Program-made: the position numbers and the translations under genes | Origin: an uncultured Actinomycetes bacterium | GTDB taxonomy: Bacteria > Actinomycetota > Thermoleophilia > Gaiellales > Gaiellaceae | NCBI GenBank assembly: GCA_963739525.1 | Contig: CAVUAR010000005.1 | Location: 358,915 to 422,914, forward strand | Direction of reading: 5' to 3' | Length of the DNA stretch: 64,000 nucleotides | In this document: one piece after another, positions 11,028 to 54,919 of the stretch | Numbering within the stretch: the first letter of the stretch is position 1 | How the letters are laid out: each line of letters starts with the position of its first letter | The notes under the pieces: generated by a model | Database searches by the model: none | What the model saw: the letters and a program-made list of their open reading frames with translations, nothing else | Told to the model about the DNA's origin: nothing

Positions 11028-11179
11028 CGGCACGGAGACGGCACGAAGCGCGCGCCACACGTGCGGCGCTCGGCGTTAGGCTCGGGCCATCGGGTTGGGG
11101 AGGTGGGTTTCCCACGATCTCGCGCCCGAGTAACTGGAGGGCGCCGTGAGGGTCTGGCAGCCCGGCTCCCACCTCAGCG

Positions 11180-13661: not shown

Positions 13662-13671
13662 GCTCGGGTTC

Positions 13672-14555: not shown

Positions 14556-14597
14556 GGCGACCCCGTCCCGGCGGCCGATACACTGGGATCTCTTCGC

Positions 14598-14668
14598 TGC
14601 GGGGTCGTCTAATGGTAGGACGCCTGACTCTGGATCAGGTAGTCAAGGTTCGAATCCTTGCCCCGCAG
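14598..14668 (+). tRNA. tRNA-Gln (anticodon CTG)
   Basis: Cloverleaf read by eye: acceptor TGCGGGG/CCCCGCA, anticodon stem CCTGA/TCAGG with loop CTCTGGA, T-arm with GGTTCGAATCC. No encoded CCA. Confidence 0.85.
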
Positions 14669-27980: not shown

Positions 27981-28199
27981 TCGGCACTGCTGCACGCTCG
28001 GTGGCCTTTCACGAAGGCGTTCGGAAACACGTTGCCGTCCGCTGACGCTGAGACATGGCACGATTTCCGAGATCACCTTGTTCGGCCGCTCCTCGCGGCG
28101 GATACTGGCGGTCGACGGTTCGGGATCACAGAGTCGTCGGGCCCGCCGCCGCCCTCGTCGGGCGCGGCTAGCCTGGGGGGAGATGGCGAGAATGCGGCC

Positions 28200-29306
28200 G
28201 TGACCAAAGCCCAGAAGGCGTCGCCCCTGGTAAGCGTCGTCACGCCTGTCTTCAACGGTGAGCGCTACCTGGCCGAGTGCATCGAAAGCGTGCTCGGGCA
28301 GACGTTTGTCGACTGGGAATATGTCGTCGTCGACAACCAGAGCATCGACGCGACGCCGAGCATCGTCGAGCGATACGCGCGCGAAGATCCGCGGATTCGC
28401 CTGCACGTCAGCGACGCGTGCCGGCCCGTCATCGCCAACTGGAACTGCGCGCTGAAGCAGATCTCGCCGCAGACCTCCTATTGCAAGATCGTGCATGCCG
28501 ACGACCTCCTAATGCCGCGCTGCCTCGAGCGTATGGTCGAGCTCGCCGAGCAGCATCCTTCCGTCGCGATCGTCGGTGCCTTCCGCCTTGCCGGTAACAA
28601 GGTCGAGCTGGACGATGTCGTGCCGTTCCGAACGTCAGTCGTCTCCGGCGAGACGATCTGCCGTCACTCTCTGCTCGGAGGGCGGTACATCTTCGGATCG
28701 CCGAGCTCACTGCTTCTACGCGCGAGCGTCGTCCGTGAGCGTGAGGCCTTCTACAACGAATCGCACCTACACGCCGATACGGAGTCCTGCTACGAGGTGC
28801 TGAAGACGAACGACTTCGGCTTCGTCCACGAGATCCTCACCTACACGCGCAGGCATGAGACCTCAGTCACCTCTGCCGCGCGCCGCCTGGGCACGTGGCT
28901 TCCGGATCACACGGCGATGCTCGTGAAGTATGGCCCCGTCTACCTCACGGATGAGGAGCTCGACCGGCGCTTGCGGCAGCTGCTACGCCGGTACAACCGG
29001 CGGCTCGTACGCAGCACTATCGGCGGGCGCCCGTTTCGCGACCCGAGCTTCGTCGCCCACCACCGGCGCATGTTGGCCGAGATCTCCGACGCTCTCGGGC
29101 CGCTCTCCACCCGGCGCGGGCGCTCGCTGCAACTCTGGCGAGGCGTGCTCGCCGCCAGCGCTCCGCTCGCCGACCTCTCTCGCAAAACGGGGGACCGAAT
29201 GAGCGACGCTGACCAAGCCACGATCGAGGGCTTCGAGCCAACACGCAAGGTCGAAGAAGGCGCGACGCCCTCCGATAGAACAACACGCTCGGCTTCAACC
29301 TCCTGA
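28200..29306 (+). CDS. family 2 glycosyltransferase
   Basis: VSVVTPVFNGERYLAECIESVLGQT, VVVDNQSIDAT and HADDLL (DxD region). GTG 28200 is chosen as the first plausible start. About 120-aa C-terminal extension. Confidence 0.8.
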   Translation: MTKAQKASPLVSVVTPVFNGERYLAECIESVLGQTFVDWEYVVVDNQSIDATPSIVERYAREDPRIRLHVSDACRPVIANWNCALKQISPQTSYCKIVHADDLLMPRCLERMVELAEQHPSVAIVGAFRLAGNKVELDDVVPFRTSVVSGETICRHSLLGGRYIFGSPSSLLLRASVVREREAFYNESHLHADTESCYEVLKTNDFGFVHEILTYTRRHETSVTSAARRLGTWLPDHTAMLVKYGPVYLTDEELDRRLRQLLRRYNRRLVRSTIGGRPFRDPSFVAHHRRMLAEISDALGPLSTRRGRSLQLWRGVLAASAPLADLSRKTGDRMSDADQATIEGFEPTRKVEEGATPSDRTTRSASTS

Positions 29307-29842: not shown

Positions 29843-30011
29843 CCGCCGAGCGTAGGCGCAGTTCGTCCTAGCAAGGCGACCTGGCGAGTTCGACCGTTGA
29901 CGAGCAGGGCTCCGGGACCACCCGACTTCAGACCGACCGGATACGACTGGCGCATCCTTTCCGCCGCGGGAGGAAGCTTCAGCGATTCGGGGTCTGGGCA
30001 GTGTCACTAGC

Positions 30012-30962
30012 ATGAGCCGCTACCTCGTCACCGGCTGTGCTGGGTTCATTGGGTCGCACCTCACGGACGAGATCATCGCGCGAGGCGACGAAGTCGTCGG
30101 GGTCGACGCCTTCACGGACTACTACGCGCGTGAAACGAAGGAACTCAACCTCGCCGAGGCGCGTGCGGACACCGGTCTGTCGCTCGTCGAGCTCGACCTG
30201 ACCGAAGGCGAGCTCAAGCCGCTCCTCGACGGTGTGGACGGGGTCTTTCATCTCGCCGCCCAGCCCGGAGTTCGAGGGAGCTGGGGCGACGGGTTCGCCC
30301 GCTACGTCCAGGACAACATCCTCGCCACCCAGCGGCTCTTCGACGCCATGGCGGGCACGGGCCTTCGCGTGGTCATGGCGTCGACCTCGTCGGTGTACGG
30401 GAACGCCGAGACATATCCGACTCGGGAGGACGCGACGCCAAGGCCGGTCTCTCCCTACGGCGTCACGAAGCTCGCCTGCGAGTCCCTCGCCCGAACATAC
30501 GCGGAATGCTTCGGCCTGGAAGTCGTGCTCCTACGCTACTTCAGCGTCTACGGTCCAAGGCAGCGTCCCGACATGGCGTTCGCCCGGATCATCGCGGCCG
30601 TGCTCGGCGAGCGGACCTTCTCCGTCTTTGGATCCGGTGAGCAGTCGCGTGACTTCACCTATGTCGGGGACGCGGTGGAGGCCACGCTCGCCGCGATGGA
30701 GGGCGGTCCGGCCGGCATCGTCTACAACGTCGGCGGGGGAAGCGAGACGACCCTGAACCAGGCGATCGAAGTGTGCGAGCGGCTGGCGGACAAGCAGCTG
30801 AGAGTCGTCCACGAGCCGCAGGCTCTCGGAGACGTCCGAAGAACCGGAGCAGACACGACCCTCGCTGCCGCGGAGCTCGGCTGGCGCCCACGGATCTCCC
30901 TCGAGGAAGGCCTCGCCCGCCAGCTGGCGGCTGCTCGGTCAGCGGGTAGCGTCCCTTCCTAG
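30012..30962 (+). CDS. NAD-dependent nucleotide-sugar epimerase/dehydratase (SDR)
   Basis: VTGCAGFIGSHL Rossmann motif, MASTSSVYG, catalytic YGVTK. Confidence 0.85.
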   Translation: MSRYLVTGCAGFIGSHLTDEIIARGDEVVGVDAFTDYYARETKELNLAEARADTGLSLVELDLTEGELKPLLDGVDGVFHLAAQPGVRGSWGDGFARYVQDNILATQRLFDAMAGTGLRVVMASTSSVYGNAETYPTREDATPRPVSPYGVTKLACESLARTYAECFGLEVVLLRYFSVYGPRQRPDMAFARIIAAVLGERTFSVFGSGEQSRDFTYVGDAVEATLAAMEGGPAGIVYNVGGGSETTLNQAIEVCERLADKQLRVVHEPQALGDVRRTGADTTLAAAELGWRPRISLEEGLARQLAAARSAGSVPS

Positions 30963-31375: not shown

Positions 31376-32614
31376 TTGAGCAGCGTAGTCACAATCGGCA
31401 AGCGTTGGTGGTGGCTCCTCGTGATCGGGGCGGTTGTCGCGGCCCTGATGGGGTTGCTCGTCGCGAACCGCCTGCCCGACACATACGAAGCCGAGACGCA
31501 GGTCCTCGTCGGCCCGCTGACCCCACCCGACAAGGACACGCTCGACACCGCCGGAGCCCAGGCGCGAACATACAGCGCCCTCGCGACCACGAGCCCCATC
31601 CTCGACGCCGCAGCCCAGCGCGTGGGTCTCACGAGCATCCGCGGCAAGATCCACGGCGTCAACGCAAGCGACGTCACGCGGCTGATCTCCATCACGGCCC
31701 GCGACAGCGACCCCGCTCGGGCGGCCGCGATCGCCAATGCGCTTGCAACGGTCCTGGTACAACGCGCGGCCGGCGGGCCGCCGGCAGGTCGGCTCACGGT
31801 GGTGCAGCAGGCGACACCTCCGCAAAACCCGGTCGGCCCTTCCACGGGTCTCATCGTTGCGCTGACCGCCCTCGTCGGGTTGCTCGGGGCGTTCGGCATC
31901 GCTGCGCTCGTCGACTCCCTCACCGCGGTCGTACGCTCGGAGGAGGACATCGCCCCGTACACGCCGGTCCTCGGCTCGGTGAACGGATCCCGGCCCTGGC
32001 GGAGGGAAAAGCCAATCGTCGTCGAGGCGGAGCCCGAGTCGTCGGCGGCCGCCTCCTACCGCGTGTTGACAACCAAGATCGAGCTTTCCAACGGGGAGGT
32101 TCCCCTCCGAAGCCTTCTCCTGCTGGACGTCCACGGGGGTCATTCGAGCGCACGCGTCGCGGCGAATCTCGCGGCCAGCTTCGTGGAGGACGGCACGCGC
32201 GTCGTCCTCGTCGACGGCGACCAGCGGGGCGGCCTGATGCGCCTCTTCACACAAGGATCCGAGTCGGCGGACGTTGTACAAAGGGCACGCCCGCTGCGCA
32301 TCGGCAAGCTCATGTTCGACCGGTTTCGCATCCGCCGCCCTCGGCTCATCGTGCTCAGACCGCGGAGGACGTCGGAAGCCCTCGACGCAGAGCAAGCAAG
32401 CGAGACGATCGAGCACCTGCTCGCGGGGGCCGACCTTGTTCTGCTCACGGCGGCGCCGCCCGACCATTCGTCCGAGAGCCTGCTCTGGGCGCGTGCCGCC
32501 CAGAGCACGATCGTGGTCGCCGAGCAGGATCACACCAAGCGAGAGGAGATGACTCCGACGCTCGAGAGCCTCCGCGTCGCCGACGCAAACGTCATCGGCG
32601 CGGTGCTGTCTTGA
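31376..32614 (+). CDS. Wzz-like chain-length determinant fused to a BY-kinase-like domain lacking Walker A lysine
   Basis: TM1 WWWLLVIGAVVAALMGLLV, Wzz-type periplasmic segment, TM2 LIVALTALVGLLGAFGIAALV. Then a MinD/BY-kinase-like domain with VVLVDGDQRGG (Walker A'), but DVHGGHSSARVAANLA where GxGKS/T is expected. Confidence 0.7.
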   Translation: MSSVVTIGKRWWWLLVIGAVVAALMGLLVANRLPDTYEAETQVLVGPLTPPDKDTLDTAGAQARTYSALATTSPILDAAAQRVGLTSIRGKIHGVNASDVTRLISITARDSDPARAAAIANALATVLVQRAAGGPPAGRLTVVQQATPPQNPVGPSTGLIVALTALVGLLGAFGIAALVDSLTAVVRSEEDIAPYTPVLGSVNGSRPWRREKPIVVEAEPESSAAASYRVLTTKIELSNGEVPLRSLLLLDVHGGHSSARVAANLAASFVEDGTRVVLVDGDQRGGLMRLFTQGSESADVVQRARPLRIGKLMFDRFRIRRPRLIVLRPRRTSEALDAEQASETIEHLLAGADLVLLTAAPPDHSSESLLWARAAQSTIVVAEQDHTKREEMTPTLESLRVADANVIGAVLS

Positions 32615-32642: not shown

Positions 32643-34352
32643 GTGACGACATTCGAGCAGGCCCTCTGGGCGCAATCCGCCCCCGGTACGAACCTCAAAG
32701 GCTCCGTCGACGGGGCGAACTGGTGCTTCCTGCTACCTCGTCTCGAGCTGGGCAGAGTCCTCACGCTCGGACGGCCGGCCGCGTCTTCGCTCGCCACCCT
32801 CTCGAAATTGGGAGACGAGGTCGTGGTCTGGGCGAACGCCGTCGATCACGACCGGCTCCAGGCCAAGGTCGAGAAGCGAAACCTCGGGAACGTAAGAATT
32901 CTCGCCGCGGAGCACGGCAAGGCGCTTCCACTGTCCGACGATGTCATCGACGTCGTACTCGTCGCGAGCCCCCGCCTTGCGCGCTCGGGCATCGGCGGCG
33001 CGAAGGTCCACGAGCTCATGCGGGTGCTGAAACCGACCGGCGCCCTCTACGTTGAATCTCGCCTCCTCGACCGGCGCCGCCGCCATGCCTCGGAGTGGTC
33101 CCTCGACCCAACCCAGCACACGTTTCTGTGGGCGGCACCGGCCTGGGGGGAGCTGCGCTTCGCCGCACCGGTTGGCGATCCCGCGGCCACCTCGTACCTC
33201 GAGCGGCACTTTCTCAAGCCGCTTGTCCGTCAAACGCTGCTCAAACGTCCTGGCAGGGTCGCTGCGCGGACACCCCTCGCGAACCGTCTCGTTCGTCGCC
33301 GCGCGCTCATCGTGACTAGAGACGGGGAGACCCGGCTGGCGGGCCCCCCGGCCTACGTCCAAACGATCGCGGAGCAGGCGGGGACGACGGTCGAGGGGCT
33401 TCGGTGGGCCTTCGCCGCACCCGGCGAGCACAGCTCCCAGAAGGCCCTCTTCTTCCTCTTCGACGACGCGGACGTCCAGCCGCGGTCGGTGGTCAAGATC
33501 ACGCGCGACGGAAGCCACAATCCCCGGCTGGAGAACGAATGGCAGGCACTTGGTCTTCTCCAGGAGCGAGGAATCGGAGACGAGCGAACCCGGCCCTCGC
33601 CTCTCTTCTTGGGTCATCACGCGGGCCTGGCGGTCCTGGGCGAGACGGCGATCACCGGAACCCCGTTCGTCGAGCAGACGGAGGCGAGTCACGAGTGCCC
33701 CCACGCACGCCGGGTAGCCGAGTGGCTCCTGGCGCTCGGCGTCTCGACCGCCCATGCCCCCGCGGATCCCTGTCTGGTCGTCAGCCGCCTGCGCGCCGTC
33801 CTCGAGCGCTTCGACGAGCTCTACCGCCCGGATCGTGAGACGAGCCGGCTCCTGTCGGACCAGATGGCCGCACTCGCGGGCAGCGCCGACGCCCTCCGGC
33901 TCGTGTTCCAGCATGGAGACCCGGGCCCGTGGAACATCGTCGTGACACCGGACGGGAGGCCGGGCTTCCTCGACTGGGAGGCGGCAGATCCCGACGGGAT
34001 GCCGCTTTGGGATCTCTTCCACTTCGTGCGCAGCTTTGGGCTCGCCGTCTCGCAGAAGGCGGGCAGGCGTGACCCTGGCAGGAGCTTCGCCGACCAGATC
34101 CTCGCGGAGTCGGGGGTCAACGGGCTTCTCGTCGAGACGACGAACCGTTTCTGTGCCGAGACAGGTGTCTCGACCCGGCTCGTCGAGCCGCTCTTCTATC
34201 TCTGCTGGGTCCACCGTGCGGTGAAGGAGGCTTCTCGACTGTCGCGGAAGGAGCTGCAGTCGGGCCGTTATTTCAACCTCCTGCGTCTCGCAGTCGTCCG
34301 CAGGAACGCGCCTGGACTGCACCGGCTCTTCTCGCCCGCGTCCGGCACCTAG
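32643..34352 (+). CDS. fusion protein: methyltransferase-fold domain (no GxGxG) + APH/choline-kinase-fold phosphotransferase
   Basis: Intact 569 aa. N-domain WCFLLPRLELGRVLTLG...MRVLKPTGALYVE is a paralogue of gene 53187-53792. C-domain VFQHGDPGPWNIVV...GFLDWE carries the APH catalytic and DxD-like motifs. Confidence 0.7.
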   Translation: MTTFEQALWAQSAPGTNLKGSVDGANWCFLLPRLELGRVLTLGRPAASSLATLSKLGDEVVVWANAVDHDRLQAKVEKRNLGNVRILAAEHGKALPLSDDVIDVVLVASPRLARSGIGGAKVHELMRVLKPTGALYVESRLLDRRRRHASEWSLDPTQHTFLWAAPAWGELRFAAPVGDPAATSYLERHFLKPLVRQTLLKRPGRVAARTPLANRLVRRRALIVTRDGETRLAGPPAYVQTIAEQAGTTVEGLRWAFAAPGEHSSQKALFFLFDDADVQPRSVVKITRDGSHNPRLENEWQALGLLQERGIGDERTRPSPLFLGHHAGLAVLGETAITGTPFVEQTEASHECPHARRVAEWLLALGVSTAHAPADPCLVVSRLRAVLERFDELYRPDRETSRLLSDQMAALAGSADALRLVFQHGDPGPWNIVVTPDGRPGFLDWEAADPDGMPLWDLFHFVRSFGLAVSQKAGRRDPGRSFADQILAESGVNGLLVETTNRFCAETGVSTRLVEPLFYLCWVHRAVKEASRLSRKELQSGRYFNLLRLAVVRRNAPGLHRLFSPASGT

Positions 34353-35729: not shown

Positions 35730-36954
35730 TTGAAGGTCGCGTACGTCATGTCTCGCTTTCCACGCCTGAGCGAGACCTTCGTCCTCTACGAGATCCTGGC
35801 CGTCGAGGACATGGGCATCGACGTGGAGCTCTACCCGCTGATCCGGGAACGGGCCGAGCGTCGTGCACCCCGAGGCCCTGGAGCTCTGCAACCGCGCGAG
35901 ATTCCAGCCCTTCTTCTCCGCGGCCGTGCTGCGCAGCCAGCTCCACTTTCTCCGCCGCTCGCCTCGGCGGTACCTGGGTACCCTGCGCGATCTGCTCGCG
36001 GGCACGTGGGGCAGCCCCAACTTCTTCGCCGGAGCCGTCGCGATCTTCCCGAAGGTCGCGCACACCGCCCGGCTGATGCAGGCCGACGGAATCGACCACG
36101 TCCACTGCCATTTCGCCAACCACCCTGCGGCGGCGGGTTTCGTGATCCACCGCCTCACAGGCATCCCGTTCAGCTTCACGGCCCACGGCTCCGACCTGCA
36201 TGTCGATCGTCACATGCTCGGCGAGAAGCTCGCCGAAGCCGCGTTCGCCGTACCCATCTCCCGGTACAACCGCGACCTCATGATCGAAGAGTGCGGCGAG
36301 GGTTTCCGCGGAAAGCTCGTCGTCATCCACTGCGGCGTCGACACGCGGGTGTTCCGACCCGTCGGCCGCAAGGCGGAGGACGGGCGCTTCACCGTCCTCT
36401 CCGTCGGGACGCTCCACGAGGTGAAGGGGCAGAAGGATCTCGTCGAGGCATGTCGTCTGCTGCGGGAGGACGGCGTCGACGTCGTCTGCAAGCTCGTCGG
36501 GGAGGGCCCCGACCGCAAGGCTTTGAGCCGGCAGATAGCGGCTGCCGGGCTCGAGGGGCGCGTGACCCTGCTCGGACGCCGCGACCGGTCCGAGGTCGCA
36601 GAGCTCCTGCAAGGGGCTGACGTCCTCGCGGCGCCGAGCGCGCCTACGAGGCGCGGAAAGCGTGAGGGAATCCCGATCGTCCTGATGGAGGCGATGGCCA
36701 GCGGCGTGCCGGTCGTCGCGAGCCGGATCTCGGGGATTCCGGAGCTGGTCGAGGACGGCGTCTCCGGGCTTCTGGTCCCGCCTCGAGACCCGCGGAGCCT
36801 TGCGGATGCCCTGGCCCGGCTCCACGCCGACAGCTCTCTGCGTGAGGCGCTCGCGCCCGCGGGTCGCGCAAAGGTGGAGGCCGAATTCGACCTGCGCCAG
36901 AACGCAGCGGAGCTCGTGCGACAGTTCAGAGCCCATGCGACGGTCCCGGCGTGA
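35730..36954 (+). pseudogene. family 4 glycosyltransferase, single frame switch near 35860
   Basis: N-terminus (L)KVAYVMSRFPRLSETFVLYEI is in the frame of ORF 35613. The rest is in ORF 35863-36954 (HFANHPAAAGF, REGIPIVLMEAMASGVPVVASRISGIPELV). The shift is +1. Confidence 0.8.
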
Positions 36955-38168: not shown

Positions 38169-39016
38169 GCGGCGCCGCGATCGGTCGGCTCGAGCGGCTC
38201 AAGCACGAGCTCAGCCGACTTCGCGGAGACCCGACAGCAGCGCCCGACGCGAGCATCGTGATTCCGGTCAACGCGGAGGCCGATCTCGAGAACGTCCTCC
38301 ACGTGATCGACGACATCTCCCGGTATGAGGGGAACCGAACCTTCGAAGTCGTGCTCGTCATCAATCACTACCCATCTGACGCCCCACCCGAGGAGCTGAA
38401 GACCTACGCCCGGGCGGGCCTGCGCGCCGTCGGCGTCCCCAACGCGTGGAGGTCGGGGGAGGTCGTCAGCTTCACGGCTCGGATCCCCGGCGCCCGGGAG
38501 GCGGCCTCACCGCTCCTCATCCACTTCGACGCCGATTGTCGGCTGCCGAGCGCGACCGCGCTGCTCGACTGGTACGTGGAGCAATTCGCGCGCGGCGCAG
38601 CCGCGGCGTACACCCACGTGGGCTATTACGACCTCCGCCCGCTCTGGTCGGTTCGCGCCCGGATCGCCGCTCACCATGGCGCCCGCTGGGTGAAGAGGAA
38701 CATCCTGCGTATCCCGACGATTCGCGGGAGCAACTATGCGGTCGATCGCTCCCTTTTCCTCTCGCTTTACGAGCAGGGGCTGCTGACCGACGACCTCAAC
38801 GTCGGCCCGGCGGTGAAGGCGAGCGGGGGCCCCGTCTCGTACGGGAGCGCCAGCGACCTCGCTGTCCTCACGTCGGGGCGCCGGTTCAGGGGCGGCTGGC
38901 TGAGGCTCATGCGTTACCTCTGGTACCGGGCGCGGTACAACATACGCGTCTTGCCGGTTCGCGCGCTCGAGCCGGGAAAGTCGCGGAATCCCTTCCACGA
39001 GAAGCCGCTCCGGTGA
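38165..39016 (+). CDS. glycosyltransferase-like protein (GT-A fold, divergent)
   Basis: ATGA overlap with the upstream GT2. ASIVIPVNAEADLENVL and LIHFDADC resemble GT2 motifs. The rest is divergent. Confidence 0.55.
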   Translation: MSGAAIGRLERLKHELSRLRGDPTAAPDASIVIPVNAEADLENVLHVIDDISRYEGNRTFEVVLVINHYPSDAPPEELKTYARAGLRAVGVPNAWRSGEVVSFTARIPGAREAASPLLIHFDADCRLPSATALLDWYVEQFARGAAAAYTHVGYYDLRPLWSVRARIAAHHGARWVKRNILRIPTIRGSNYAVDRSLFLSLYEQGLLTDDLNVGPAVKASGGPVSYGSASDLAVLTSGRRFRGGWLRLMRYLWYRARYNIRVLPVRALEPGKSRNPFHEKPLR

Positions 39017-39035
39017 CCGTCTTCCTCGGGGTCGC

Positions 39036-49175: not shown

Positions 49176-50252
49176 CTATCGTTTCGAGGCGTCGTGCGTC
49201 GGTGTCAACGTGTATGGAGTCCGTGAACCTCCGGTCCTGGGTCGCGGTCTTCCCCACCAGGGAAGAAGCTGCGCCCGGAGAAGCGGGATCGTCGAGGCCC
49301 GGCCGACGTTGATCCGCCTGAGACGCAGCCAATTCCCATCTCGAACGTCGTTGGTGCCCCGCTGGGTCGTGAAGGCGAGCTCGAACCGCTCCTCCGCGAG
49401 CACGTCGGCGATCTCGGGACTCTCGCCGCCTGCCGGATAGGCGAAGACCCTGGGGACCGGCCCGACCTCGCGGGTGAGGTCCTCGACGGAGCCGACGATC
49501 TCCTTCCGGGCCGCGTCGATCGACAGGCGGTCGAGAAGGGGGTGAGTCCGCGAATGAGGCGCGAGGGCCACCCCCTCCGCCTGAAGCTTTCGAAGCTCGC
49601 TCCAGCCCAGGACGGCAGATCCCACCGGTGGCGCCCCCAGGACCCGACAGAGGTCGTCCACGAGCGTCATGGCCTCCTCGTGAGGCAAGGACTTCACGAC
49701 GTCCCGAAGTCGCCTGTAGGCGGCCAGCCGGTTGGAGCTCGAGTCGAGACGAAGCTCACCGACCGGCGTGTCGATGGCCCGCGTCGAGGCCGGCGCCGTC
49801 AGCGCCGAGAACAGCCGGTCCCACCAGAACCCCGACGCGCTTCCCGGGTATGCGGTGGGGACGAAGAGGACGACGGGGACCCCCTGCTTCTGCAGGATCG
49901 GCCAGGCTTCCGCCGCAAAATCGCGATAGCCGTCGTCGAACGTCACGAGCACGGACCGAAGCGGCAACTCTGCCTCGCCGCGGCGAACAGCGAGAAGTTC
50001 CTCCAGTGACAGCGGTCGATAGCGCGACGCGATCAGTGCCATCTGCTCCTCGAACTCGGACGGCAGCGCGCTGACGAGACCCGGGTAGAGCTGCGGCGAG
50101 CGGGCCGGGTCGTCCACTCGGTGGTAGGTGAGGACCGCGAGCGCCCCCTGTCTTGGTCGGGCCGATCTCTCGAGCCCGGCCACGAGCCAGCCAAAGGCCC
50201 TCCCGCGAGACGCAGCGAGCGCGGAACGCCGAAGCACAGGGCTCACGCTCAC
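49176..50252 (-). CDS. polysaccharide deacetylase (NodB/CE4 family)
   Basis: VLVTFDDGYRDF (NodB motif 1) and APHSRTHPLL. GTGA overlap with the ATP-grasp stop. Confidence 0.8.
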   Translation of the reverse strand: MSVSPVLRRSALAASRGRAFGWLVAGLERSARPRQGALAVLTYHRVDDPARSPQLYPGLVSALPSEFEEQMALIASRYRPLSLEELLAVRRGEAELPLRSVLVTFDDGYRDFAAEAWPILQKQGVPVVLFVPTAYPGSASGFWWDRLFSALTAPASTRAIDTPVGELRLDSSSNRLAAYRRLRDVVKSLPHEEAMTLVDDLCRVLGAPPVGSAVLGWSELRKLQAEGVALAPHSRTHPLLDRLSIDAARKEIVGSVEDLTREVGPVPRVFAYPAGGESPEIADVLAEERFELAFTTQRGTNDVRDGNWLRLRRINVGRASTIPLLRAQLLPWWGRPRPRTGGSRTPYTLTPTHDASKR

Positions 50253-51439
50253 GGCCGCATCTTCCGAGCGAGCTTCGCGGGGATCCTCGCGATCTCGGCC
50301 AGGCCGGGTCGCGGGTCGTCCCGGCTGAGGACGTCGTAGCCGTCCTTCGGGTAGGCAAGCCTGACCGCGGCCTGGATCGCCTCGCGCCGACGAGGCACCG
50401 CGACCAGCCGATGATCCTGTCTCCCGCGCAGTGTCGAGGCGATCCAGAGAACTTCAAGATCGAGATTCCGCGACCGGACGCCGACCTGGTAGCGCCTATA
50501 GGGCGTGTGCCCGTTCTCGGGCGGACCCGTGAGGTAGAGCTCTGCCATCCGCGCCGGAAAGTCGACGCCGCTCTTCACCGCAAGCGGCAGCGATCCCCAG
50601 ACGCGCCCGTTGATCTCCATCAGGCGTGGGCCCTCGTCTCCGATCTTGAACTCCACCATCGCAAGACCCGTCCAGTCGAGCGCGGCGAGTAGCCGCGTGG
50701 CGTAGTCGTAGAGAGTTGGATCGAGCGCGACGCTCTCCCGAAACGAGCTCGCACCGCCCGTGATGGGCACCTCATGGAGCCGGCGATGCTGGAAGACGGC
50801 GAGCGGCCGCCCGCGATCCAACAGAAGCTCGACTCCGTGCCCCTCCCCCCGACAGTACTCCTGCAGCAACACCTCCGAGCGTCCCTCGAGCCGCCCGACC
50901 TCGGCAGCGAGAGCATCCGGGTTGTCCGCGTATGCGACCTCGTAGTGCTCGACCGGGCGCTCGCTGCGGCGAGCACTCGACGATCTCGGCTTGAGCACGA
51001 TCGGCCACCCGAGCGGCCCCGCGGCTTGGAGCGCTTCCTCGACGGTCGAGACAAGGGCCGTCCGTGGGACGGGGACCTGCTGCTCGCGTGCGAGCGACAG
51101 AGTGGCGAGCTTGTCCTGGGTCTTTGCGTATGCATCCTTCGCCGGCAAGGCGATGGCGCAAACGCCGGCGAATCGAGCGCGCTCTTCGGAGAGCAGGAAA
51201 GCCAGCTCGTCCCCGACGGGAACGATGAGGTCGACCCGATGCGCGGAAGCCGTCCGGAGCAGACTCTCGATCGTCCCTGCAGGATCCGTCCTTGGCGACG
51301 GATACCGGACTCGACCCGAGGCGTAACGAGAAAGGAAGCCTGGGCTACGGCCCTCGAAATCGGCGGCAATTACATCGAGCCCGCGGGCACCGAGCGACCG
51401 GATGATCGTGATCGCCGCTCCGCGAGCGGCGTCTGTCAC
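50249..51439 (-). CDS. ATP-grasp domain ligase
   Basis: 396 aa. N-terminal pre-ATP-grasp pattern TDAARGAAITIIRSLGARGLDV, PIVLKPRSS, LLQEYCRGEGHGVELL, MVEFKIGDEGPRLMEINGRVWGSL. Confidence 0.75.
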   Translation of the reverse strand: MTDAARGAAITIIRSLGARGLDVIAADFEGRSPGFLSRYASGRVRYPSPRTDPAGTIESLLRTASAHRVDLIVPVGDELAFLLSEERARFAGVCAIALPAKDAYAKTQDKLATLSLAREQQVPVPRTALVSTVEEALQAAGPLGWPIVLKPRSSSARRSERPVEHYEVAYADNPDALAAEVGRLEGRSEVLLQEYCRGEGHGVELLLDRGRPLAVFQHRRLHEVPITGGASSFRESVALDPTLYDYATRLLAALDWTGLAMVEFKIGDEGPRLMEINGRVWGSLPLAVKSGVDFPARMAELYLTGPPENGHTPYRRYQVGVRSRNLDLEVLWIASTLRGRQDHRLVAVPRRREAIQAAVRLAYPKDGYDVLSRDDPRPGLAEIARIPAKLARKMRP

Positions 51440-51453
51440 GAGAACCCGCCCTG

Positions 51454-52179
51454 TCAGAACCCGACCTCCTCCGCCACTGCGGGCCGCCGTCTCGTCGAGT
51501 AGCTCTCGATGGCGCTTGCGACGTCGCGCGTGACCGCCTCGAGCGGGCGGTTTGCGTCCACGACGGCGAATCCGTCGAGAACCTCGCCGAGCTCCAGGTA
51601 CTCTCGCCGGCGTCGCTCGAGCGATTCGAGCGTCCCCTCCCCCTTGCGTTGGAGCAGAACCTCAGCCGGGGCGTCCAGATAGATGACCAGATCTGGTCTG
51701 GGATAGAGGCGCGCGAGGATGAAGCCGTGCAGCCGCCTGCTCGCCGTGCGGCGCGGTTTGGCGGCGATGTCGTATGCGTAGTAGTCGGCGAAGAAGTGTC
51801 GGTCGAAGACGACCACCTCGCCGCGGCGGCGGTGCACGGTTGCGACCAGCGCGCGATGCCATTCCTCGGCGAGACGGTTGCCGAGGCGGACGAACGAACG
51901 GACCGAACGAAGCCCGCGTTCCATCCGGCCCCGCGGAGGGGCCGGCTCAGCGGCCCGCGAGTCCTTTGGCCCGGACGCGTCAGGCATCGCGCCGCGGCGC
52001 CGGCGAAGCGCATGGACGACGCGCGTAGTCGGAAGCAGATGGTTGCTCGAATCCGGATTGACGCCCATGTAGAGGTACTCGACCGGGAACGGAAGCGCCG
52101 CTTCGAGCCGGCGGGCGACCGTCGTCTTGCCCGCCCCGTCGGGGCCGATCAAAGCGACTGTGAAGCCGCGTCCGGTCAT
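51454..52179 (-). CDS. dTMP-kinase-like P-loop kinase
   Basis: MTGRGFTVALIGPDGAGKTT Walker A, VVFDRHF (Walker B-like), DLVIYLDAP. ATGA overlap with the APH stop. It is the last 241 aa of track ORF 51454-53694. Confidence 0.7.
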   Translation of the reverse strand: MTGRGFTVALIGPDGAGKTTVARRLEAALPFPVEYLYMGVNPDSSNHLLPTTRVVHALRRRRGAMPDASGPKDSRAAEPAPPRGRMERGLRSVRSFVRLGNRLAEEWHRALVATVHRRRGEVVVFDRHFFADYYAYDIAAKPRRTASRRLHGFILARLYPRPDLVIYLDAPAEVLLQRKGEGTLESLERRRREYLELGEVLDGFAVVDANRPLEAVTRDVASAIESYSTRRRPAVAEEVGF

Positions 52180-53190
52180 CGGCTCCAGGCCAGATCGTGC
52201 AGGTTGTCGAGCGTGTGGCTCCAGAACTGGTAGTACCGGTTTTGGCGCACCCAAGCTGCGCTTTCCCGATCCATGGTCGGCCGATCGGCTCCGATTCGCA
52301 CGGCGAGCCGCGCCGTATATCGGGCCCAGCAGGCGACGAACAGCGGCGTGAGCAGCGCCCGGTCGAGTTCGATCGCGTCTGCGTACGCGATCATCCTCGC
52401 CCGTGCCCATGCAGATCGGCCGAAGAAGGCATCGGCGAAGACCTTCGCGTAACCCTCGGCGGCAGGCGCGCGGCGAAGCGAAAGCGTCGCGAACGCGAGG
52501 AAGAAGCTGAGGTCGTGCAACGGCAGGCCCTGCTCTTCGGCGAGCTCCCAGTCGACGACGCCCACTCGATGATCCGGGAGCAGGATCAGGTTGGGATGGC
52601 TGAGGTCGCCGTGCTCGAGCACATGGGGCAACGGGCCCTCGCGAAGCGGCTCGACGATCTCGAGCGTCCGAACAACGAGGTCTTGCTCGGCCGCTGCTTC
52701 CGGAAACGATGCGGCGAAGAGGGACAGGGGCTCCGCGACGAGTCGTTCGAAGGAGAGGGTGCCGTCGGCGCCACGCGGCAGGCTCATGAGCCAGCGGACG
52801 ACCTCGTCGATGTACCGCGACGGGACCTGCCCGGAGCACGTCGCGGGTCAGGAGCGGCCCGACGAGCGCCGTTTCGACGAGGACAGGGCGATCACCATCC
52901 GTATGCGCGACGACCCGCGGAGCGGAACGCCCTGCGTCCGGGCAGCGCTCCTGGAGGGTGGTGAGGATGCGGGCCTCCCGGGCGATTCCGTCGTCGTCTC
53001 GCGGAAGCCGTGGCATCTTGACGACGAGGCTCGGCTCGACGGCCCCGTTCGGGATCAGGAGCGCGACGACGTGCCGTGACGTTCGAAAACGTGGCGTGAG
53101 GATGACGCAAGAGGCGCCCTCGCCCACATCCAATTCGTCCAGCCGGAACCGATCCCGCAGGGCGTCCACGCGCGACAAGATCGCGTTCAT
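52176..53190 (-). pseudogene. APH/choline-kinase-fold phosphotransferase, single frame switch near 52828
   Basis: MNAILSRVDAL...LVVKMPR (Lys of the VAIK-like motif) in one frame. RYIDEVVRWL...LEHGDLSHPNLIL...VVDWE is in ORF 52176-52787. The shift is +1. ATGA overlap with the upstream gene. Confidence 0.75.
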
Positions 53191-53792
53191 CCGGTTGCCT
53201 TCCGCTCCGGCGGCAGCCGTCCGAGAACGCTCGCGCACGGAACGAAGAGCGCGAGCTGGCGGGTGCCCGCGAGCACCGGCGCGAGACGCATCAGTAGCCG
53301 CGTCCGGCTCATCCGAGCGCGCCGCACACCGTGACGCACTGCAGCGGCATCGTCGAGGGGGACGATCGCCCGGCAGGATGCGAAGTCCGGCCAGTGGACA
53401 AAGGTGCCGATGTCGGCGAACCCTCGTTTCCGGAGCGCGCCTGCATAGCCACGGGCGGAGCGCGAGGCGCGCGCTTCGGTTCGCCTGAGCGACTTCTCGA
53501 CCTCGACGTAAAGCCAGCCTCCGGGACGCAGAACGCTGGTCGCGGCATCGAGCATGTCGTCGCTCGGGGTTCGGAGCACAACGAGGTCGTAGGGCGCTTC
53601 GGATCCTCCCCGTCGGCCCGCCTCCAACGTGACCAGCTCGGCGCTGAAAAGCCGCAGCGACTCGAGTAGTTCTTCGTCGGAGACTCCGATGCACGCGACC
53701 CGGCCGAGCTCCGGGTCGGGAAGCAGGAATCGCCAGTCGACCCGGCGTGACGCGAGCAGCAGGGCGTCGTGGTTGACGACTTCCACCTGCAT
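53187..53792 (-). CDS. methyltransferase-fold protein without canonical SAM loop
   Basis: 201 aa. WRFLLPDPELGRVACIGVSDEE...YDLVVL...LRPGGWLYVEV is a paralogue of the N-domain of 32643-34352. ACIGVSDE stands where VLDxGxGxG is expected. Confidence 0.6.
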   Translation of the reverse strand: MQVEVVNHDALLLASRRVDWRFLLPDPELGRVACIGVSDEELLESLRLFSAELVTLEAGRRGGSEAPYDLVVLRTPSDDMLDAATSVLRPGGWLYVEVEKSLRRTEARASRSARGYAGALRKRGFADIGTFVHWPDFASCRAIVPLDDAAAVRHGVRRARMSRTRLLMRLAPVLAGTRQLALFVPCASVLGRLPPERKATG

Positions 53793-53797
53793 GGCCG

Positions 53798-54919
53798 CTA
53801 CTCGCAGAATCGCTTCATCGCATTGAACAGAGCGCCCAGGGACACCGGATACGGATGGTGCACGACGTACGCCTGCTTGCCGGACAAGGCACGTGTGATG
53901 GCATCGCGTTGCAACGCTGCGGCGTGGTCGACGAGGTAGCTGGAGGAATCCGGAAAGGCGAAGCGATACTTCAGATACGCAGCCGTCAGATCGAGGCTCT
54001 CATGTTGAAGCGAGAAGGCCATCCGGCGCGCGACCTCCGAGGGAGCGACGGGCTCGACGGTCACGTCGCGCCGCTCGTGCGCGACGAGGAAGAAGAGGCG
54101 GTCGAACGGAGCTCTCAACGCGCCGAGAGGGCCGAAGAGTCGTTCGGGCGTGACGTCGACGTACAGCTGTCGCCTCAGGAGCGCCGACACCCGCCCGGAT
54201 CTCGGGTGTCTCCAGGCCTCGGCTCTCAGGACGAGCTCGAGGGCGCCCAGCCGTGCGCGTTCGCCCTTTCCGATGAGCCGCTCGTACTGCGGCAGCTGGC
54301 GCAACTGCCAGTGCCAGATGCGGATCGGCTCGGGGATCCCGTGGACGCGGGCGCCGTCGCTGGTCACGTAGACCCACTCGTCGCCGACGTACTCTGCGCC
54401 GTGGGCCGCGAACGCGAGCAGCGCTTCCGTCTTCCCGCCCTTCGACCAACCTGTGGCGACGATGCCAGCGCCTTCGTGGACGAACGCCGACGCGTGGAGG
54501 GGCAGAACTCCCTTCGCGAGGAGAGTCAAGTTGAGGATCGGTACGAGAAAGGGAACGGCTGTCAGCCCGCGCTCGCAGACGATCTCGGTCGGCCCTCCGA
54601 TCTGGCTGAAGTCGATCTTCACCCGGGCCGGCGACTTGCGCCGGCTTCGGAGGACGAGGAAGGCATCGTCGGTGAACCCCGCCTCGTCCAGCCCGATGTA
54701 ACGGATCTCCGACGATCTCTCGAGCCGATCCACGAAGTGGATGACGATGTCCGGGTCGCGCTCCAGGGGAGCTTCCAGGGGCCCGAGCTGTCGTCGCACA
54801 GCCGCGGCATCGGCGGGACTTGGGCCCACGAGCCTGATGGCGGCCAGTCCGTGGAGATCGAGGTCGAGAGCGCTCGCCGAAGCTCTCGACCTCATAGGCA
54901 CTGCGCCGGCGAGCGTCAT
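53798..54919 (-). CDS. HPr-kinase-like (HprK-related) P-loop protein
   Basis: 373 aa. LPLHASAFVHEGAGIVATGWSKGGKTEALLAF resembles the HprK C-domain pattern (H-x-S/A ... G-x-S-G-x-GKS/T). ATGA overlap with the upstream NTase gene. Confidence 0.65.
   Translation of the reverse strand: MTLAGAVPMRSRASASALDLDLHGLAAIRLVGPSPADAAAVRRQLGPLEAPLERDPDIVIHFVDRLERSSEIRYIGLDEAGFTDDAFLVLRSRRKSPARVKIDFSQIGGPTEIVCERGLTAVPFLVPILNLTLLAKGVLPLHASAFVHEGAGIVATGWSKGGKTEALLAFAAHGAEYVGDEWVYVTSDGARVHGIPEPIRIWHWQLRQLPQYERLIGKGERARLGALELVLRAEAWRHPRSGRVSALLRRQLYVDVTPERLFGPLGALRAPFDRLFFLVAHERRDVTVEPVAPSEVARRMAFSLQHESLDLTAAYLKYRFAFPDSSSYLVDHAAALQRDAITRALSGKQAYVVHHPYPVSLGALFNAMKRFCE

What the first reader, a model, noticed from the sequence alone, without database searches (positions are those of the whole stretch)
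32643..34352. Rosetta-stone duplication: methyltransferase-like + APH kinase module present once fused and once split
The 569-aa protein 32643-34352 joins two domains. The first is a methyltransferase-fold domain (WCFLLPRLELGRVLTLG ... LKPTGALYVE). The second is an APH-fold kinase (HGDPGPWNIVV, FLDWE).

On the opposite strand, genes 53187-53792 (WRFLLPDPELGRVACIG ... LRPGGWLYVE) and 52176-53190 (HGDLSHPNLIL, VVDWE) encode the same two domains as separate proteins. They occur in the same order and are linked by an ATGA overlap.

The fusion/split pair argues that the two domains act together. Both methyltransferase-like copies have lost the glycine-rich SAM loop, so they may serve as substrate-binding or scaffolding pseudo-methyltransferases for the kinase.
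Basis: seen in the sequence. Interest (0 to 1): 0.65.

Follow-up and report, generated by a model that had tools for sequence, protein, structure and literature searches.

The report
Pseudo-methyltransferase–kinase modules, fused and split
One exopolysaccharide gene cluster of a soil actinobacterium holds two old sister copies of a two-part enzyme: a methyltransferase-shaped domain without the usual cofactor-binding motifs, joined to an antibiotic-kinase-type kinase. One copy is a single protein and the other is two overlapping genes; the pairing recurs in about ten bacterial phyla, but its substrate is unknown.

Summary
ORF 32643-34352 (569 aa) is a class-I-methyltransferase-fold domain followed by an APH-fold kinase. 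Genes 53187-53792 and 52176-53190 on the minus strand carry the same two domains in the same order, with an ATGA overlap. Homology is far beyond chance: N-domains hhalign E 2e-15, kinases BLASTP E 2e-17, full-length profiles E 1.5e-48.

The correction: the split kinase is not an intact ORF here. An extra C at 52822-52824 breaks the frame. This is most likely an assembly indel, because orthologues are intact and at least four other frame breaks lie nearby.

The two copies are old paralogues, not a local duplication. Type A was found as one ORF in all but two of 80 loci. Type B is split in about 70% and fused in about 30% of full-length representatives. The two types co-occur in glycan loci across about ten phyla. 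They often form a cassette: A, HPr-kinase-like protein, MT-like B, kinase B, Tmk-like kinase.

Kinase catalytic residues are invariant. The SAM glycine loop and the ribose-binding acidic residue are missing family-wide. WbdD is the only solved structure matching both domains, but family membership fails. The likeliest function is sugar or glycan phosphorylation with a non-catalytic methyltransferase-like partner. The substrate is untested.

The parts
32643..34352 (+). Type-A module: a single 569-aa protein. Residues about 1-225 (32643-33317) form a class-I methyltransferase-like domain plus a helical linker. Residues about 226-569 (33318-34349) form an APH-fold kinase with K285, E299, H424-G-D426, N431 and D444-W-E.
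   Evidence: - ORF.
- Pfam APH, E 4.7e-11.
- More than 200 full-length homologues.
- Invariant residues.
- AF2 model, pLDDT 86.9, pTM 0.89.
- Foldseek.
- PDB profile hits to class I methyltransferases.
53187..53792 (-). Type-B methyltransferase-like protein (201 aa), a stand-alone homologue of the type-A N-domain.
   Evidence: - ORF.
- No Pfam or NCBIfam family.
- 208 homologues of about 200-240 aa.
- hhalign against the A N-domain, E 2e-15.
- AF2 model, pLDDT 84.
- Foldseek gives class I methyltransferases and the anamorsin N-domain.
52176..53190 (-). Type-B APH-fold kinase (337 aa when the frame is repaired). Its ATG overlaps the stop of the upstream gene (ATGA). In this sequence the frame is broken by one extra C.
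   Evidence: - Three-frame translation.
- Pfam APH on the C-terminal part, E 1.8e-8.
- tblastn with the intact orthologue switches frame at 52822/52823.
- BLASTP against kinase A, E 2e-17.
- Catalytic residues invariant in 118/118 B kinases.
52822..52824 (-). CCC run carrying the one-base insertion that breaks kinase B. It is probably an assembly error.
   Evidence: - DNA alignment with L006, which has CC.
- At least four further frame breaks in neighbouring genes relative to orthologues.
53798..54919 (-). HPr-kinase-like P-loop protein (373 aa; motif GWSKGGKTE). It is the conserved neighbour directly upstream of the type-B pair.
   Evidence: - NCBIfam HprK_rel_B and FomB hits, weak.
- The top four PDB profile hits are all HPr kinase/phosphorylase, best E 1.6e-3.
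- Found within 8 kb of the type-B gene in 23 of 34 loci, usually directly upstream, at 350-590 bits.
51454..52179 (-). Thymidylate-kinase-like P-loop protein, the conserved neighbour downstream of kinase B.
   Evidence: - Pfam Thymidylate_kin, E 4.8e-11.
- NCBIfam.
- Present near the type-B pair in 23 of 34 loci.
50255..51373 (-). ATP-grasp enzyme, a frequent member of the cassette.
   Evidence: Pfam ATPgrasp_Ter; tblastn with the L003 orthologue; synteny.
49176..50252 (-). Polysaccharide deacetylase (PgaB/IcaB-like), in the same operon.
   Evidence: synteny.
31376..32614 (+). Wzz/PCP-type chain-length protein with a BY-kinase-like domain that lacks the Walker-A lysine. It lies directly upstream of the type-A gene.
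   Evidence: same arrangement in L001.

Best explanation
**What is there.** The window carries two ancient paralogues (types A and B) of one two-part enzyme module. Each module is an N-terminal class-I-methyltransferase-fold domain that lacks the canonical S-adenosylmethionine (SAM)-binding motifs, working with a catalytically intact APH/choline-kinase-type kinase. In A the two parts are one polypeptide. In B they are two translationally coupled genes here, and one polypeptide in about 30% of lineages.

**Proposed function.**
- Both modules belong to a Wzx/Wzy-type exopolysaccharide locus.
- They are most likely cytoplasmic ATP-dependent O-kinases that phosphorylate sugar hydroxyls.
- The acceptor would be either the lipid-linked repeat unit or a sugar precursor.
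- A and B would have different acceptor specificities.
- They would act in one pathway with an HPr-kinase-like and a thymidylate-kinase-like P-loop enzyme.

**Proposed role of the methyltransferase-like domain.** It acts as a non-catalytic partner, holding the acceptor or buttressing the kinase. The surface conserved in both paralogues would serve this role: W-x-F-L-L-P, Y-x-E and W-x-x-P.

**Status of each step.**
- Shown: homology, architecture, fused and split distribution, synteny, motif conservation and motif loss.
- Inferred: kinase activity, loss of SAM binding, sugar or glycan substrate, and the partner role of the N-domain.
For: **Homology of both domain pairs and of the whole architecture.**

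**Type A fused, type B fused or split.**
- Type A is full-length fused in 78 of 80 genome loci. The two exceptions are broken ORFs in long-read MAGs.
- Type B: 82 stand-alone against 34 fused representatives.
- Fused forms are scattered on a quick tree.

**Kinase competence.**
- K285, E299, H424, D426, N431 and D444 are invariant in 108 A sequences.
- The same positions are invariant in 118/118 B sequences.

**Small-molecule type of kinase.** Structural neighbours of the kinase domain are APH(3'), homoserine kinase II, LicA choline kinase and Rv3168, with TM 0.5-0.6 on the target.

**Methyltransferase fold without SAM motifs.**. The anamorsin N-terminal methyltransferase-like domain is among the best matches; from my own knowledge it does not bind SAM.

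**Confident inter-domain packing.** pTM is 0.89 for the 569-aa model.

**Glycan context.**
- In the window: glycosyltransferases GT2 and GT4, epimerase, Wzz/PCP, Wzx, Wzy_C, sulfotransferase, deacetylase and Bac_transf.
- In relatives, similar glycan genes surround the modules.
- A and B lie on the same strand within 10 kb in 29 of 80 loci, and in 15 of the 33 loci with long flanks.
- The cassette neighbours are conserved.

**Architectural precedent.** WbdD, a glycan kinase plus methyltransferase, is the top PDB match and the only one covering both domains (PMC3482155).
Against: - There is no direct evidence on the substrate. No cultured, chemically characterised polysaccharide is linked to these genes.
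- APH-fold enzymes also phosphorylate antibiotics, amino acids and choline, and some phosphorylate proteins.
- The first glycine of motif I is retained (75/81 in type A), so some nucleotide or SAM-like ligand binding cannot be excluded from sequence alone.
- The contact between the two domains rests only on a pTM value. Coordinates could not be inspected.
- The cassette holds four predicted phosphotransferases plus an ATP-grasp enzyme. That could equally mean stepwise synthesis of an unusual phosphorylated small-molecule substituent rather than direct glycan phosphorylation.
Confidence: 0.5

Rival explanations
1. True WbdD-type bifunctional enzyme. The N-domain would still be an active methyltransferase using a non-canonical SAM site. 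The module would phosphorylate the non-reducing end of a growing glycan, then methylate the phosphate, acting as a chain terminator.
For: - WbdD (4AZT) is the best Foldseek hit and aligns over 507 columns across both domains in the same order.
- The N-domain has a class I methyltransferase fold.
- The first glycine of motif I is conserved.
- Some database entries are named SAM-dependent methyltransferase, and a few homologues pass PF13649 or PF08241.
Against: - G-x-G-x-G is replaced by G-x-P-x-x, and the beta-2 acidic residue is lost family-wide.
- Type B lacks the alphaB/beta3 segment.
- The Pfam methyltransferase matches cover only the second half of the domain.
- There is no C-terminal coiled coil: the protein ends with the kinase.
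- The locus is Wzx/Wzy/PCP type, not ABC-transporter type.
- WbdD is not found by profile search at E up to 10.
- TM-scores to WbdD are only 0.23-0.28.
Confidence: 0.1
2. Precursor kinases. A and B would phosphorylate free sugars or another small metabolite, for example at the anomeric position as the APH-fold kinases NahK, AmgK and Mak do. This would feed an activated donor into the pathway rather than modify the assembled glycan.
For: - Structural neighbours are small-molecule kinases.
- The cassette includes a Tmk-like kinase, an HprK/FomB-like kinase and an ATP-grasp enzyme.
- Some loci add a nucleotidyltransferase-like gene, PEP mutase or heptose-activation genes.
- That APH-fold anomeric sugar kinases exist is from my own knowledge, not tested here.
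Against: - The nucleotidyltransferase-like neighbour (PF14907, below threshold) is not a sugar-1-phosphate nucleotidylyltransferase family, and it is present in only 10 of 34 loci.
- Nothing in the data separates this reading from direct glycan phosphorylation.
Confidence: 0.22
3. Regulatory protein kinases. The modules would phosphorylate a protein of the export machinery. An example is the PCP/Wzz protein, whose BY-kinase-like domain has lost its Walker-A lysine. This would replace tyrosine autophosphorylation as the control of polymer assembly.
For: - The PCP gene lies directly upstream of A in the window and in L001; the similar-sized, Pfam-less gene before the fusion in L008 was not tested.
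- Both PCPs in the window lack GK[ST].
- The kinase belongs to the protein-kinase-like superfamily.
Against: - A PCP is within 8 kb of the type-B pair in only 3 of 34 loci, whereas HprK-like and Tmk-like genes are each in 23 of 34.
- The nearest structures are small-molecule kinases, not protein kinases.
Confidence: 0.08
4. The split copy is a decaying pseudogene pair, so the window shows a dead duplicate beside the working fusion rather than two working modules.
For: The kinase B reading frame is interrupted at 52822-52824.
Against: - It is a single-base change in a homopolymer.
- Both halves keep 69-72% identity to an intact orthologue, with all catalytic motifs.
- At least four other genes in the same 20 kb show frame breaks relative to orthologues. 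That points to assembly indels.
- Fusion genes in two other long-read MAGs are broken in a similar way.
Confidence: 0.1

Closest known systems
WbdD of E. coli O9a (PDB 4AZS/4AZT; PMC3482155), a kinase plus methyltransferase that terminates O-antigen chains
   Same: - It has an N-terminal class I methyltransferase-fold domain directly followed by a protein-kinase-like kinase in one polypeptide.
- It acts on a glycan in a polysaccharide locus.
- It is the best PDB match, and the only one covering both domains (E 4.4e-8, 507 columns).
   Different: - There is no detectable sequence relationship: WbdD is absent from the profile search at E up to 10.
- The domain orientation differs (TM 0.23-0.28, rmsd 19 A).
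- The SAM motifs present in WbdD are absent here.
- There is no C-terminal coiled-coil ruler.
- The locus is Wzx/Wzy/PCP type rather than ABC-transporter type.
- The kinase here scores as Pfam APH.
- The module exists as two paralogues, one of which is often split.
APH / choline-kinase family small-molecule kinases (PF01636): APH(3'), homoserine kinase II, LicA, Rv3168
   Same: - The kinase domain passes the Pfam APH threshold.
- It has the H-x-D-x4-N catalytic loop and the D-x-E metal site.
- It has a helical C-terminal subdomain.
- TM-scores are 0.5-0.6 on the target.
   Different: - The solved family members that matched align to the kinase domain only (273-349 columns), with no methyltransferase-like partner.
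- A and B form their own subfamily. The A kinase profile scores B kinases at 66-136 bits but other APH proteins in the same loci at 45 bits or less.
- No NCBIfam model fits.
Non-catalytic methyltransferase-like domains: anamorsin N-domain (2YUI, 2LD4, 4M7R) and, from my own knowledge, the pseudo-methyltransferase of animal fatty-acid synthase and METTL14
   Same: They have a class I methyltransferase fold with degenerate SAM motifs used as a structural or binding partner. Anamorsin is among the top sequence and fold matches.
   Different: They sit in unrelated contexts, and none is paired with a kinase.
Other kinase-methyltransferase families predicted to decorate glycans or Nod factors: Lani_1194/NoeA and Lcin_0519 (PMC9758233)
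   Same: They show the same recurrent theme: a protein-kinase-like domain fused to a class I methyltransferase, with conserved operon neighbours, and predicted envelope or secreted-glycan modification.
   Different: - Those families have readily identifiable methyltransferase domains, per the paper.
- Lani_1194 has an arginine in place of the catalytic lysine, whereas K285 is invariant here.
- Their taxonomic range differs.
- No sequence comparison was run here.

Membership tests
APH / phosphotransferase enzyme family (PF01636) | Sequence match above the Pfam gathering score | tested here: met
   Type A scores 43.4 bits against a cut-off of 23.2. The C-terminal part of type B scores 34.9 bits.
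APH / phosphotransferase enzyme family (PF01636) | Catalytic residues: beta-3 Lys, alphaC Glu, H-x-D-x4-N loop, metal-binding Asp | tested here: met
   K285, E299, H424, D426, N431 and D444 are invariant in 108 type-A sequences and in 118/118 type-B sequences.
APH / phosphotransferase enzyme family (PF01636) | Bilobal kinase fold with a helical substrate-binding subdomain | tested here: met
   AF2 model. Foldseek matches to APH(3'), 2PPQ and LicA with TM 0.5-0.6 on the target.
Class I SAM-dependent methyltransferases | Rossmann-like seven-strand fold | tested here: met
   PDB profile hits 8K76 (E 2e-4) and 1XXL. Foldseek of the 201-aa model gives E about 2e-6 to many methyltransferases.
Class I SAM-dependent methyltransferases | Motif I, (D/E)-x-G-x-G-x-G, the glycine-rich SAM loop | tested here: not met
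   Type A has C-L-G-x-P-x-x (G 75/81, P 76/81). Type B has (Y/C)-x-G-x-x-x-x. In the alignment to 1XXL, VLDIGAGAG corresponds to vvclGapsp.
Class I SAM-dependent methyltransferases | Acidic residue at the end of strand beta-2 that binds the ribose hydroxyls | tested here: not met
   In type A the column aligned to the Asp of 1XXL is Cys, Leu, Val or Trp. In type B it is acidic in only 15 of 35 sequences.
Class I SAM-dependent methyltransferases | Actual SAM binding or methyl transfer | not testable with these tools
   This needs ITC or thermal shift and an activity assay.
WbdD-type chain terminators | Methyltransferase domain followed by a kinase domain in one polypeptide | tested here: met
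WbdD-type chain terminators | Sequence homology to WbdD | tested here: not met
   WbdD chains are absent from the profile search of the PDB at E up to 10.
WbdD-type chain terminators | Functional SAM site in the methyltransferase domain | tested here: not met
   See the motif rows above. The WbdD SAM contacts Arg36 and Asp82 are described in PMC3482155.
WbdD-type chain terminators | C-terminal coiled-coil 'ruler' after the kinase | tested here: not met
   The protein ends at residue 569, within the helical kinase C-lobe. WbdD has residues 460-708 beyond its kinase (PMC3482155).
WbdD-type chain terminators | ABC-transporter-dependent polysaccharide locus | tested here: not met
   The window locus has a Wzx flippase, Wzy_C and PCP proteins. 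No ABC transporter was found among the proteins scanned.
Rosetta-stone (fusion/split) pair | The same two domains, in the same order, occur fused in some genomes and as separate adjacent genes in others within one orthologous group | tested here: met
   Type B has 34 fused and 82 stand-alone full-length representatives. Fused examples in genomes are L039 and L072. Split pairs are adjacent or overlapping.

The most novel reading that the evidence does not exclude
Modules A and B, the HPr-kinase-like protein and the Tmk-like kinase, often with a GT4 and an ATP-grasp enzyme, would form a previously undescribed multi-kinase cassette. It is spread over about ten phyla of mostly uncultured soil and sediment bacteria. 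The cassette would install an unusual, heavily phosphorylated or phosphate-bridged substituent on Wzx/Wzy-made exopolysaccharides. The methyltransferase-derived domain would be repurposed as the acceptor-recognition subunit of a kinase. That would be a pseudoenzyme-enzyme partnership not yet documented for bacterial glycan kinases.
Probability: 0.3. Interest if true: 0.7.

Novelty: new variant of a known kind. Interest (0 to 1): 0.5.

Why it matters
**An unfiled family.** The N-domain matches no Pfam or NCBIfam family. Neither module has an NCBIfam model, and the literature searches I ran found no description. Yet it occurs in at least 120 GTDB species representatives and in hundreds of metagenomic protein clusters.

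**A clear functional-linkage signal.** The module is fused in one paralogue and repeatedly fused or split in the other. That is about as clear as comparative genomics gets that a methyltransferase-shaped domain without the usual cofactor motifs is an obligate partner of a kinase.

**What would follow if the substrate is a glycan.**
- It would extend the WbdD idea of kinase plus methyltransferase-fold domain from ABC-transporter O-antigens of enterobacteria to Wzx/Wzy exopolysaccharides. The carriers are Gaiellales, Chloroflexota and many candidate phyla.
- It would point to phosphorylated, and probably also sulfated, polyanionic matrix polymers in soil bacteria.

**A tractable test case.** The pair can be used to ask how pseudoenzymes are recruited as specificity or scaffold subunits.

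Tried and rejected
**Look-ups that found nothing.**
- Exact-sequence look-ups of the two window proteins found no contig on record. I used close relatives instead.
- Pairwise BLASTP of the N-domains was too weak to decide (E 1e-4 over 36 aa). It was replaced by profile-profile comparison.
- NCBIfam gave no usable family for A, the small B protein or kinase B.
- Literature searches for a pseudo-methyltransferase with a kinase, for WbdD-like enzymes in Wzy systems, and for the gene combination of the cassette found no description of this family.
- The Rfam and tRNA scans showed nothing related to the finding.

**Analyses that could not be run.**
- I could not inspect the SAM pocket or the inter-domain interface, because model coordinates are not exposed.
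- AF-multimer on the split pair is not available. A concatenated construct would not have been accepted.

**Readings considered and rejected.**
- Chance similarity: rejected on E-values.
- Recent local duplication: rejected because the kinases are 26% identical and both types co-occur across phyla.
- Programmed frameshift in kinase B: rejected because relatives have a plain intact ORF and the window has many other frame breaks.
- Linkage to the PCP pseudo-BY-kinase as the main partner: rejected because the PCP is near the type-B pair in only 3 of 34 loci.

**A result to treat with caution.** The quick NJ tree gives 23 fusion/split changes. It has low resolution and no support values, so I use it only to say the fused forms are not one clade.
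Full report
**1. The observation**

The plus-strand ORF 32643-34352 encodes 569 aa with the quoted motifs.
- Pfam places an APH phosphotransferase domain at residues 271-466 (E 4.7e-11).
- It gives only sub-threshold methyltransferase hits at residues 71-139.

On the minus strand, the 201-aa ORF 53187-53792 is intact. Its TGA overlaps the ATG of the next gene, giving ATGA at 53190-53187.

- The span 52176-53190 is 1015 nt. The N-lobe reads in one frame and the C-lobe in another.
- A 93%-identical metagenomic relative (L006) differs by having CC where the window has CCC at 52822-52824, and it reads straight through.
- A 70%-identical orthologue in a MAG is an intact 337-aa gene with the same 4-nt overlap.

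Orthologue-guided tblastn shows further frame switches in the window:
- the second GT4 gene, near 35843-35860;
- the 420-aa gene, at two places;
- the flippase gene, which is split over two frames.

At least five frame breaks within 20 kb make assembly indels the likeliest cause. I treat kinase B as a working gene in the organism, with about 10% reserved for a real frameshift.

**2. Is the similarity real?**

- Plain BLASTP of the two N-domains is marginal (E 1e-4 over 36 aa).
- A profile of the 201-aa family against a profile of the fusion N-domains gives 98.5% probability, E 2e-15, over 164 columns. The match extends past the methyltransferase core into the following helices.
- The two kinases align at 26% identity over 286 residues, E 2e-17.
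- A profile of naturally fused type-B proteins aligns collinearly with the type-A family over 507 columns, E 1.5e-48.

The four domains are therefore two homologous pairs in the same order.

**3. What the two copies are**

I call the fused lineage type A and the other type B.

*Type A*
- It has more than 200 90%-clusters in the protein collection. Nearly all are 540-600 aa and cover the full length of the query.
- In the one-genome-per-species collection, at least 120 species encode it. By record title these are Gaiellales and other Actinomycetota, many Chloroflexota, KSB1, Calditrichota, Latescibacterota, Planctomycetota, Armatimonadota, Acidobacteriota, Bacteroidota, 'Deltaproteobacteria' and Krumholzibacteriia.
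- In 78 of the 80 loci kept it is one ORF. The two exceptions are broken ORFs in long-read MAGs.

*Type B*
- The small protein has about 200 clusters of 190-240 aa with no Pfam domain.
- An exhaustive HMMER search with the kinase B C-lobe finds 146 50%-cluster representatives at E of 1e-30 or better.
- Of the 116 full-length proteins among the best 150, 82 are stand-alone kinases of 310-400 aa. The other 34 carry the type-B methyltransferase-like domain at their N-terminus.
- On a quick neighbour-joining tree the fused forms are scattered (low resolution). Fusion or fission therefore probably happened several times. That is easy to picture, because one base lost in an ATGA overlap joins the frames.
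- Genome examples of fused B are L039 and L072.

This within-orthologue fusion and split is the real Rosetta-stone evidence, and it is stronger than the comparison of A with B.

**4. A and B travel together**

- In 29 of 80 type-A loci the type-B small gene lies within 10 kb. It is always on the same strand, and it is downstream in 28 of the 29 (1-7 kb). A type-B-like kinase follows it in almost all of these loci. The figure is 15 of the 33 loci with at least 8 kb on both sides.
- In Gaiellales the two halves are farther apart. In MAG MFD04944.bin.1.73 they lie about 21 kb apart on one contig. In the window they are 19 kb apart on opposite strands.
- In several Chloroflexota loci the arrangement is back-to-back. 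An example is L047: A 9974-11902, HprK-like 11887-13044, small B 13055-13750, kinase B 13747-14781, Tmk-like from about 14800.
- The HprK-like protein lies within 8 kb of small B in 23 of 34 loci, usually directly upstream, at 350-590 bits. The Tmk-like kinase follows kinase B in 23 of 34. A GT4 (12 loci) and an ATP-grasp enzyme (11 loci) are frequent.
- The HprK-like assignment rests on a profile search of the PDB. Its top four hits are all HPr kinase/phosphorylase (best E 1.6e-3), aligned over the P-loop. It also has weak NCBIfam hits to HprK-related kinase B and FomB.

**5. Locus context in the window**

*Cluster 1 (plus strand)*
- GT2, 27981-29306
- epimerase, 29901-30962
- Wzz/PCP, 31376-32614
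- type A
- GT4, then a second GT4, then GT2
- a further weakly GT2-like gene
- sulfotransferase, 38904-39944
- Wzy_C
- alginate-lyase-like gene (minus strand)
- PKD/CBM96 protein
- Wzx-type flippase

*Cluster 2 (minus strand)*
- Bac_transf initiating transferase
- a nucleotidyltransferase-like protein (PF14907, below threshold)
- HprK-like protein
- small B
- kinase B
- Tmk-like kinase
- ATP-grasp enzyme
- PgaB/IcaB-like deacetylase
- a 420-aa protein
- a second PCP

Relatives show similar sets of glycan genes. Some add sulfate-activation, heptose-activation or PEP-mutase genes. This is a Wzx/Wzy-type exopolysaccharide locus. By its closest relatives and its 68% G+C it belongs to a Gaiellales-like actinobacterium.

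**6. The kinase domains**

- K285 (VVKITR), E299, H424-G-D426, N431 and D444-W-E are invariant in 108 type-A sequences.
- The equivalent positions are invariant in 118 of 118 type-B kinases, including the repaired window gene.
- The AF2 model of A is confident (pLDDT 86.9, pTM 0.89).
- For the kinase part, the nearest solved structures are APH(3') enzymes, homoserine kinase II (2PPQ), LicA choline kinase and Rv3168, with TM 0.5-0.6 on the target.
- The type-A kinase profile scores type-B kinases at 66-136 bits, but other APH proteins in the same loci at 45 bits or less. A and B are therefore a distinct subfamily.

From the motifs I infer that both are active ATP-dependent phosphotransferases. 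From the fold neighbours I infer a small-molecule or sugar-type acceptor.

**7. The methyltransferase-like domains**

- A profile search of the PDB hits class I SAM methyltransferases (8K76 at E 2e-4, then 1XXL).
- The AF2 model of the 201-aa protein (pLDDT 84) matches many class I methyltransferases at E about 2e-6.
- The alignment to 1XXL puts the family's 'vvclGapsp' under 'VLDIGAGAG', and puts a non-acidic residue under the beta-2 aspartate.
- Across 81 type-A sequences from all phyla, the motif is (V/I)(L/V)-C-(L/V/I)-G-x-P (C 67, G 75, P 76 of 81), with no conserved acidic residue at beta-2.
- Type B is more eroded still and lacks about 27 columns spanning alphaB and beta3.
- The Pfam methyltransferase matches cover only the second half of the domain.
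- The anamorsin N-terminal methyltransferase-like domain is among the best sequence and fold matches. From my own knowledge it does not bind SAM.
- The residues conserved in both A and B are W-x-F-L-L-P before beta-1, Y-x-E at the end of the long strand, and W-x-x-P after it. These are not SAM-binding motifs.

I conclude, at sequence level, that canonical SAM binding is lost in both lineages. I infer that the domain has a partner role. The pTM of 0.89 for a two-domain protein suggests fixed packing, but I could not inspect the coordinates.

**8. Comparison with known systems**

- WbdD of E. coli O9a has an N-terminal methyltransferase (residues 1-210), a kinase (211-459) and a coiled coil (460-708). 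It phosphorylates and then methylates the terminal mannose of the O-antigen (PMC3482155).
- It is the top Foldseek hit (4AZT, E 4.4e-8) and the only hit covering both domains (507 columns). However, TM is 0.23-0.28 and rmsd 19 A, so the domains are arranged differently.
- WbdD is not detected by sequence profile at E up to 10.
- The defining WbdD features fail here: a SAM site, a coiled-coil ruler and an ABC-transporter pathway.
- The module therefore resembles WbdD in architecture and probably in the kind of chemistry (glycan O-phosphorylation), but it is not a WbdD family member.
- Other kinase-methyltransferase families proposed to decorate LPS or Nod factors (Lani_1194/NoeA, Lcin_0519) have readily identifiable methyltransferase domains and different kinase features (PMC9758233).
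- No paper found in my searches describes the present family.

**9. Mechanism and rivals**

*Best reading (about 0.5).* A and B are two-part sugar or glycan O-kinases of the exopolysaccharide pathway. The methyltransferase-derived domain is a non-catalytic acceptor-binding or stabilising partner. A and B have different acceptors and work with the HprK-like and Tmk-like enzymes.

*Rivals.*
- Kinases of a free precursor rather than the assembled glycan (0.22). My data cannot separate this from the best reading.
- A true WbdD-like kinase plus methyltransferase with a non-canonical SAM site (0.1).
- Protein kinases regulating export, for example acting on the PCPs, whose BY-kinase-like domains lack the Walker-A lysine (0.08). 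PCP linkage is weak (3 of 34 loci).
- The split copy as a pseudogene (0.1). This concerns only its status in this genome.

**10. Verdict**

- Two corrections apply. The split kinase is frame-broken in this assembly, probably an artefact. The pair is not a duplication event in this genome but two ancient paralogues that co-occur widely.
- The family is uncharacterised and absent from Pfam and NCBIfam as such. Architecturally it is a new variant of the kinase plus methyltransferase-fold glycan modifiers.
- Interest is moderate. The linkage signal is unusually clean and the distribution is broad, but the biochemical function is still inferred from context.

Noticed in passing
window 35843-35860; about 45700-45850; about 48351 and about 48738; 52822-52824: Relative to intact orthologues, at least five genes or gene segments in a 20-kb stretch change reading frame: the second GT4, the Wzx-type flippase, the 420-aa protein (twice) and kinase B. 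The pattern suggests indel errors in the assembly, of the kind seen in long-read MAGs, rather than pseudogenes.
   Followed up: partly
window 31376-32614 (+) and 46415-47719 (-): Both Wzz/PCP-type chain-length proteins carry a BY-kinase-like C-terminal domain in which the Walker-A G-K-[ST] is replaced (DVHGGHSSARVA and GAEDDESSALVA). They look like non-catalytic tyrosine-kinase domains.
   Followed up: partly
window 53798-54919 (-); for example L047:11887-13044 and L003:8883-10004: A 373-aa HPr-kinase-like P-loop protein has no Pfam family but is conserved at 45-71% identity between Actinomycetota, Chloroflexota, KSB1 and Latescibacterota. It sits directly upstream of the type-B pair in most loci. 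The top four PDB profile hits are all HPr kinase/phosphorylase.
   Followed up: partly
L008:14188-15441 (-), and the same position in L012, L013, L014, L018, L022 and L024: Several Gaiellales loci have a further, distantly related APH-family protein of about 417 aa on the opposite strand, about 2.5 kb downstream of the type-A fusion. It scores 19-31 bits with the type-A kinase profile. It is not present in the window.
   Followed up: no
window 47835-49097 (-) and 42782-44743 (+): The orthologue (L003) of the 420-aa Pfam-less protein of cluster 2 also matches, at about 40% identity, the N-terminal part of the window's PKD/CBM96 protein. This suggests a shared uncharacterised domain, possibly polysaccharide-active.
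   Followed up: no
window 38904-39944 (+); relatives L003:17452-18354 and the JGI contig: Sulfotransferase genes accompany the cassette, and one relative also has ATP sulfurylase, APS kinase and sulfatase or phosphodiesterase genes. This hints that the polymer is sulfated as well as possibly phosphorylated.
   Followed up: no
L007:1-18666 (GCA_975250935.1): In this genome the fused A and the split B pair lie 5.6 kb apart. They flank a GDP-heptose-type activation set (NTP_transferase, GHMP kinase, SIS, HAD). A PEP mutase gene lies downstream, and a beta-propeller phytase-like gene sits next to A.
   Followed up: no
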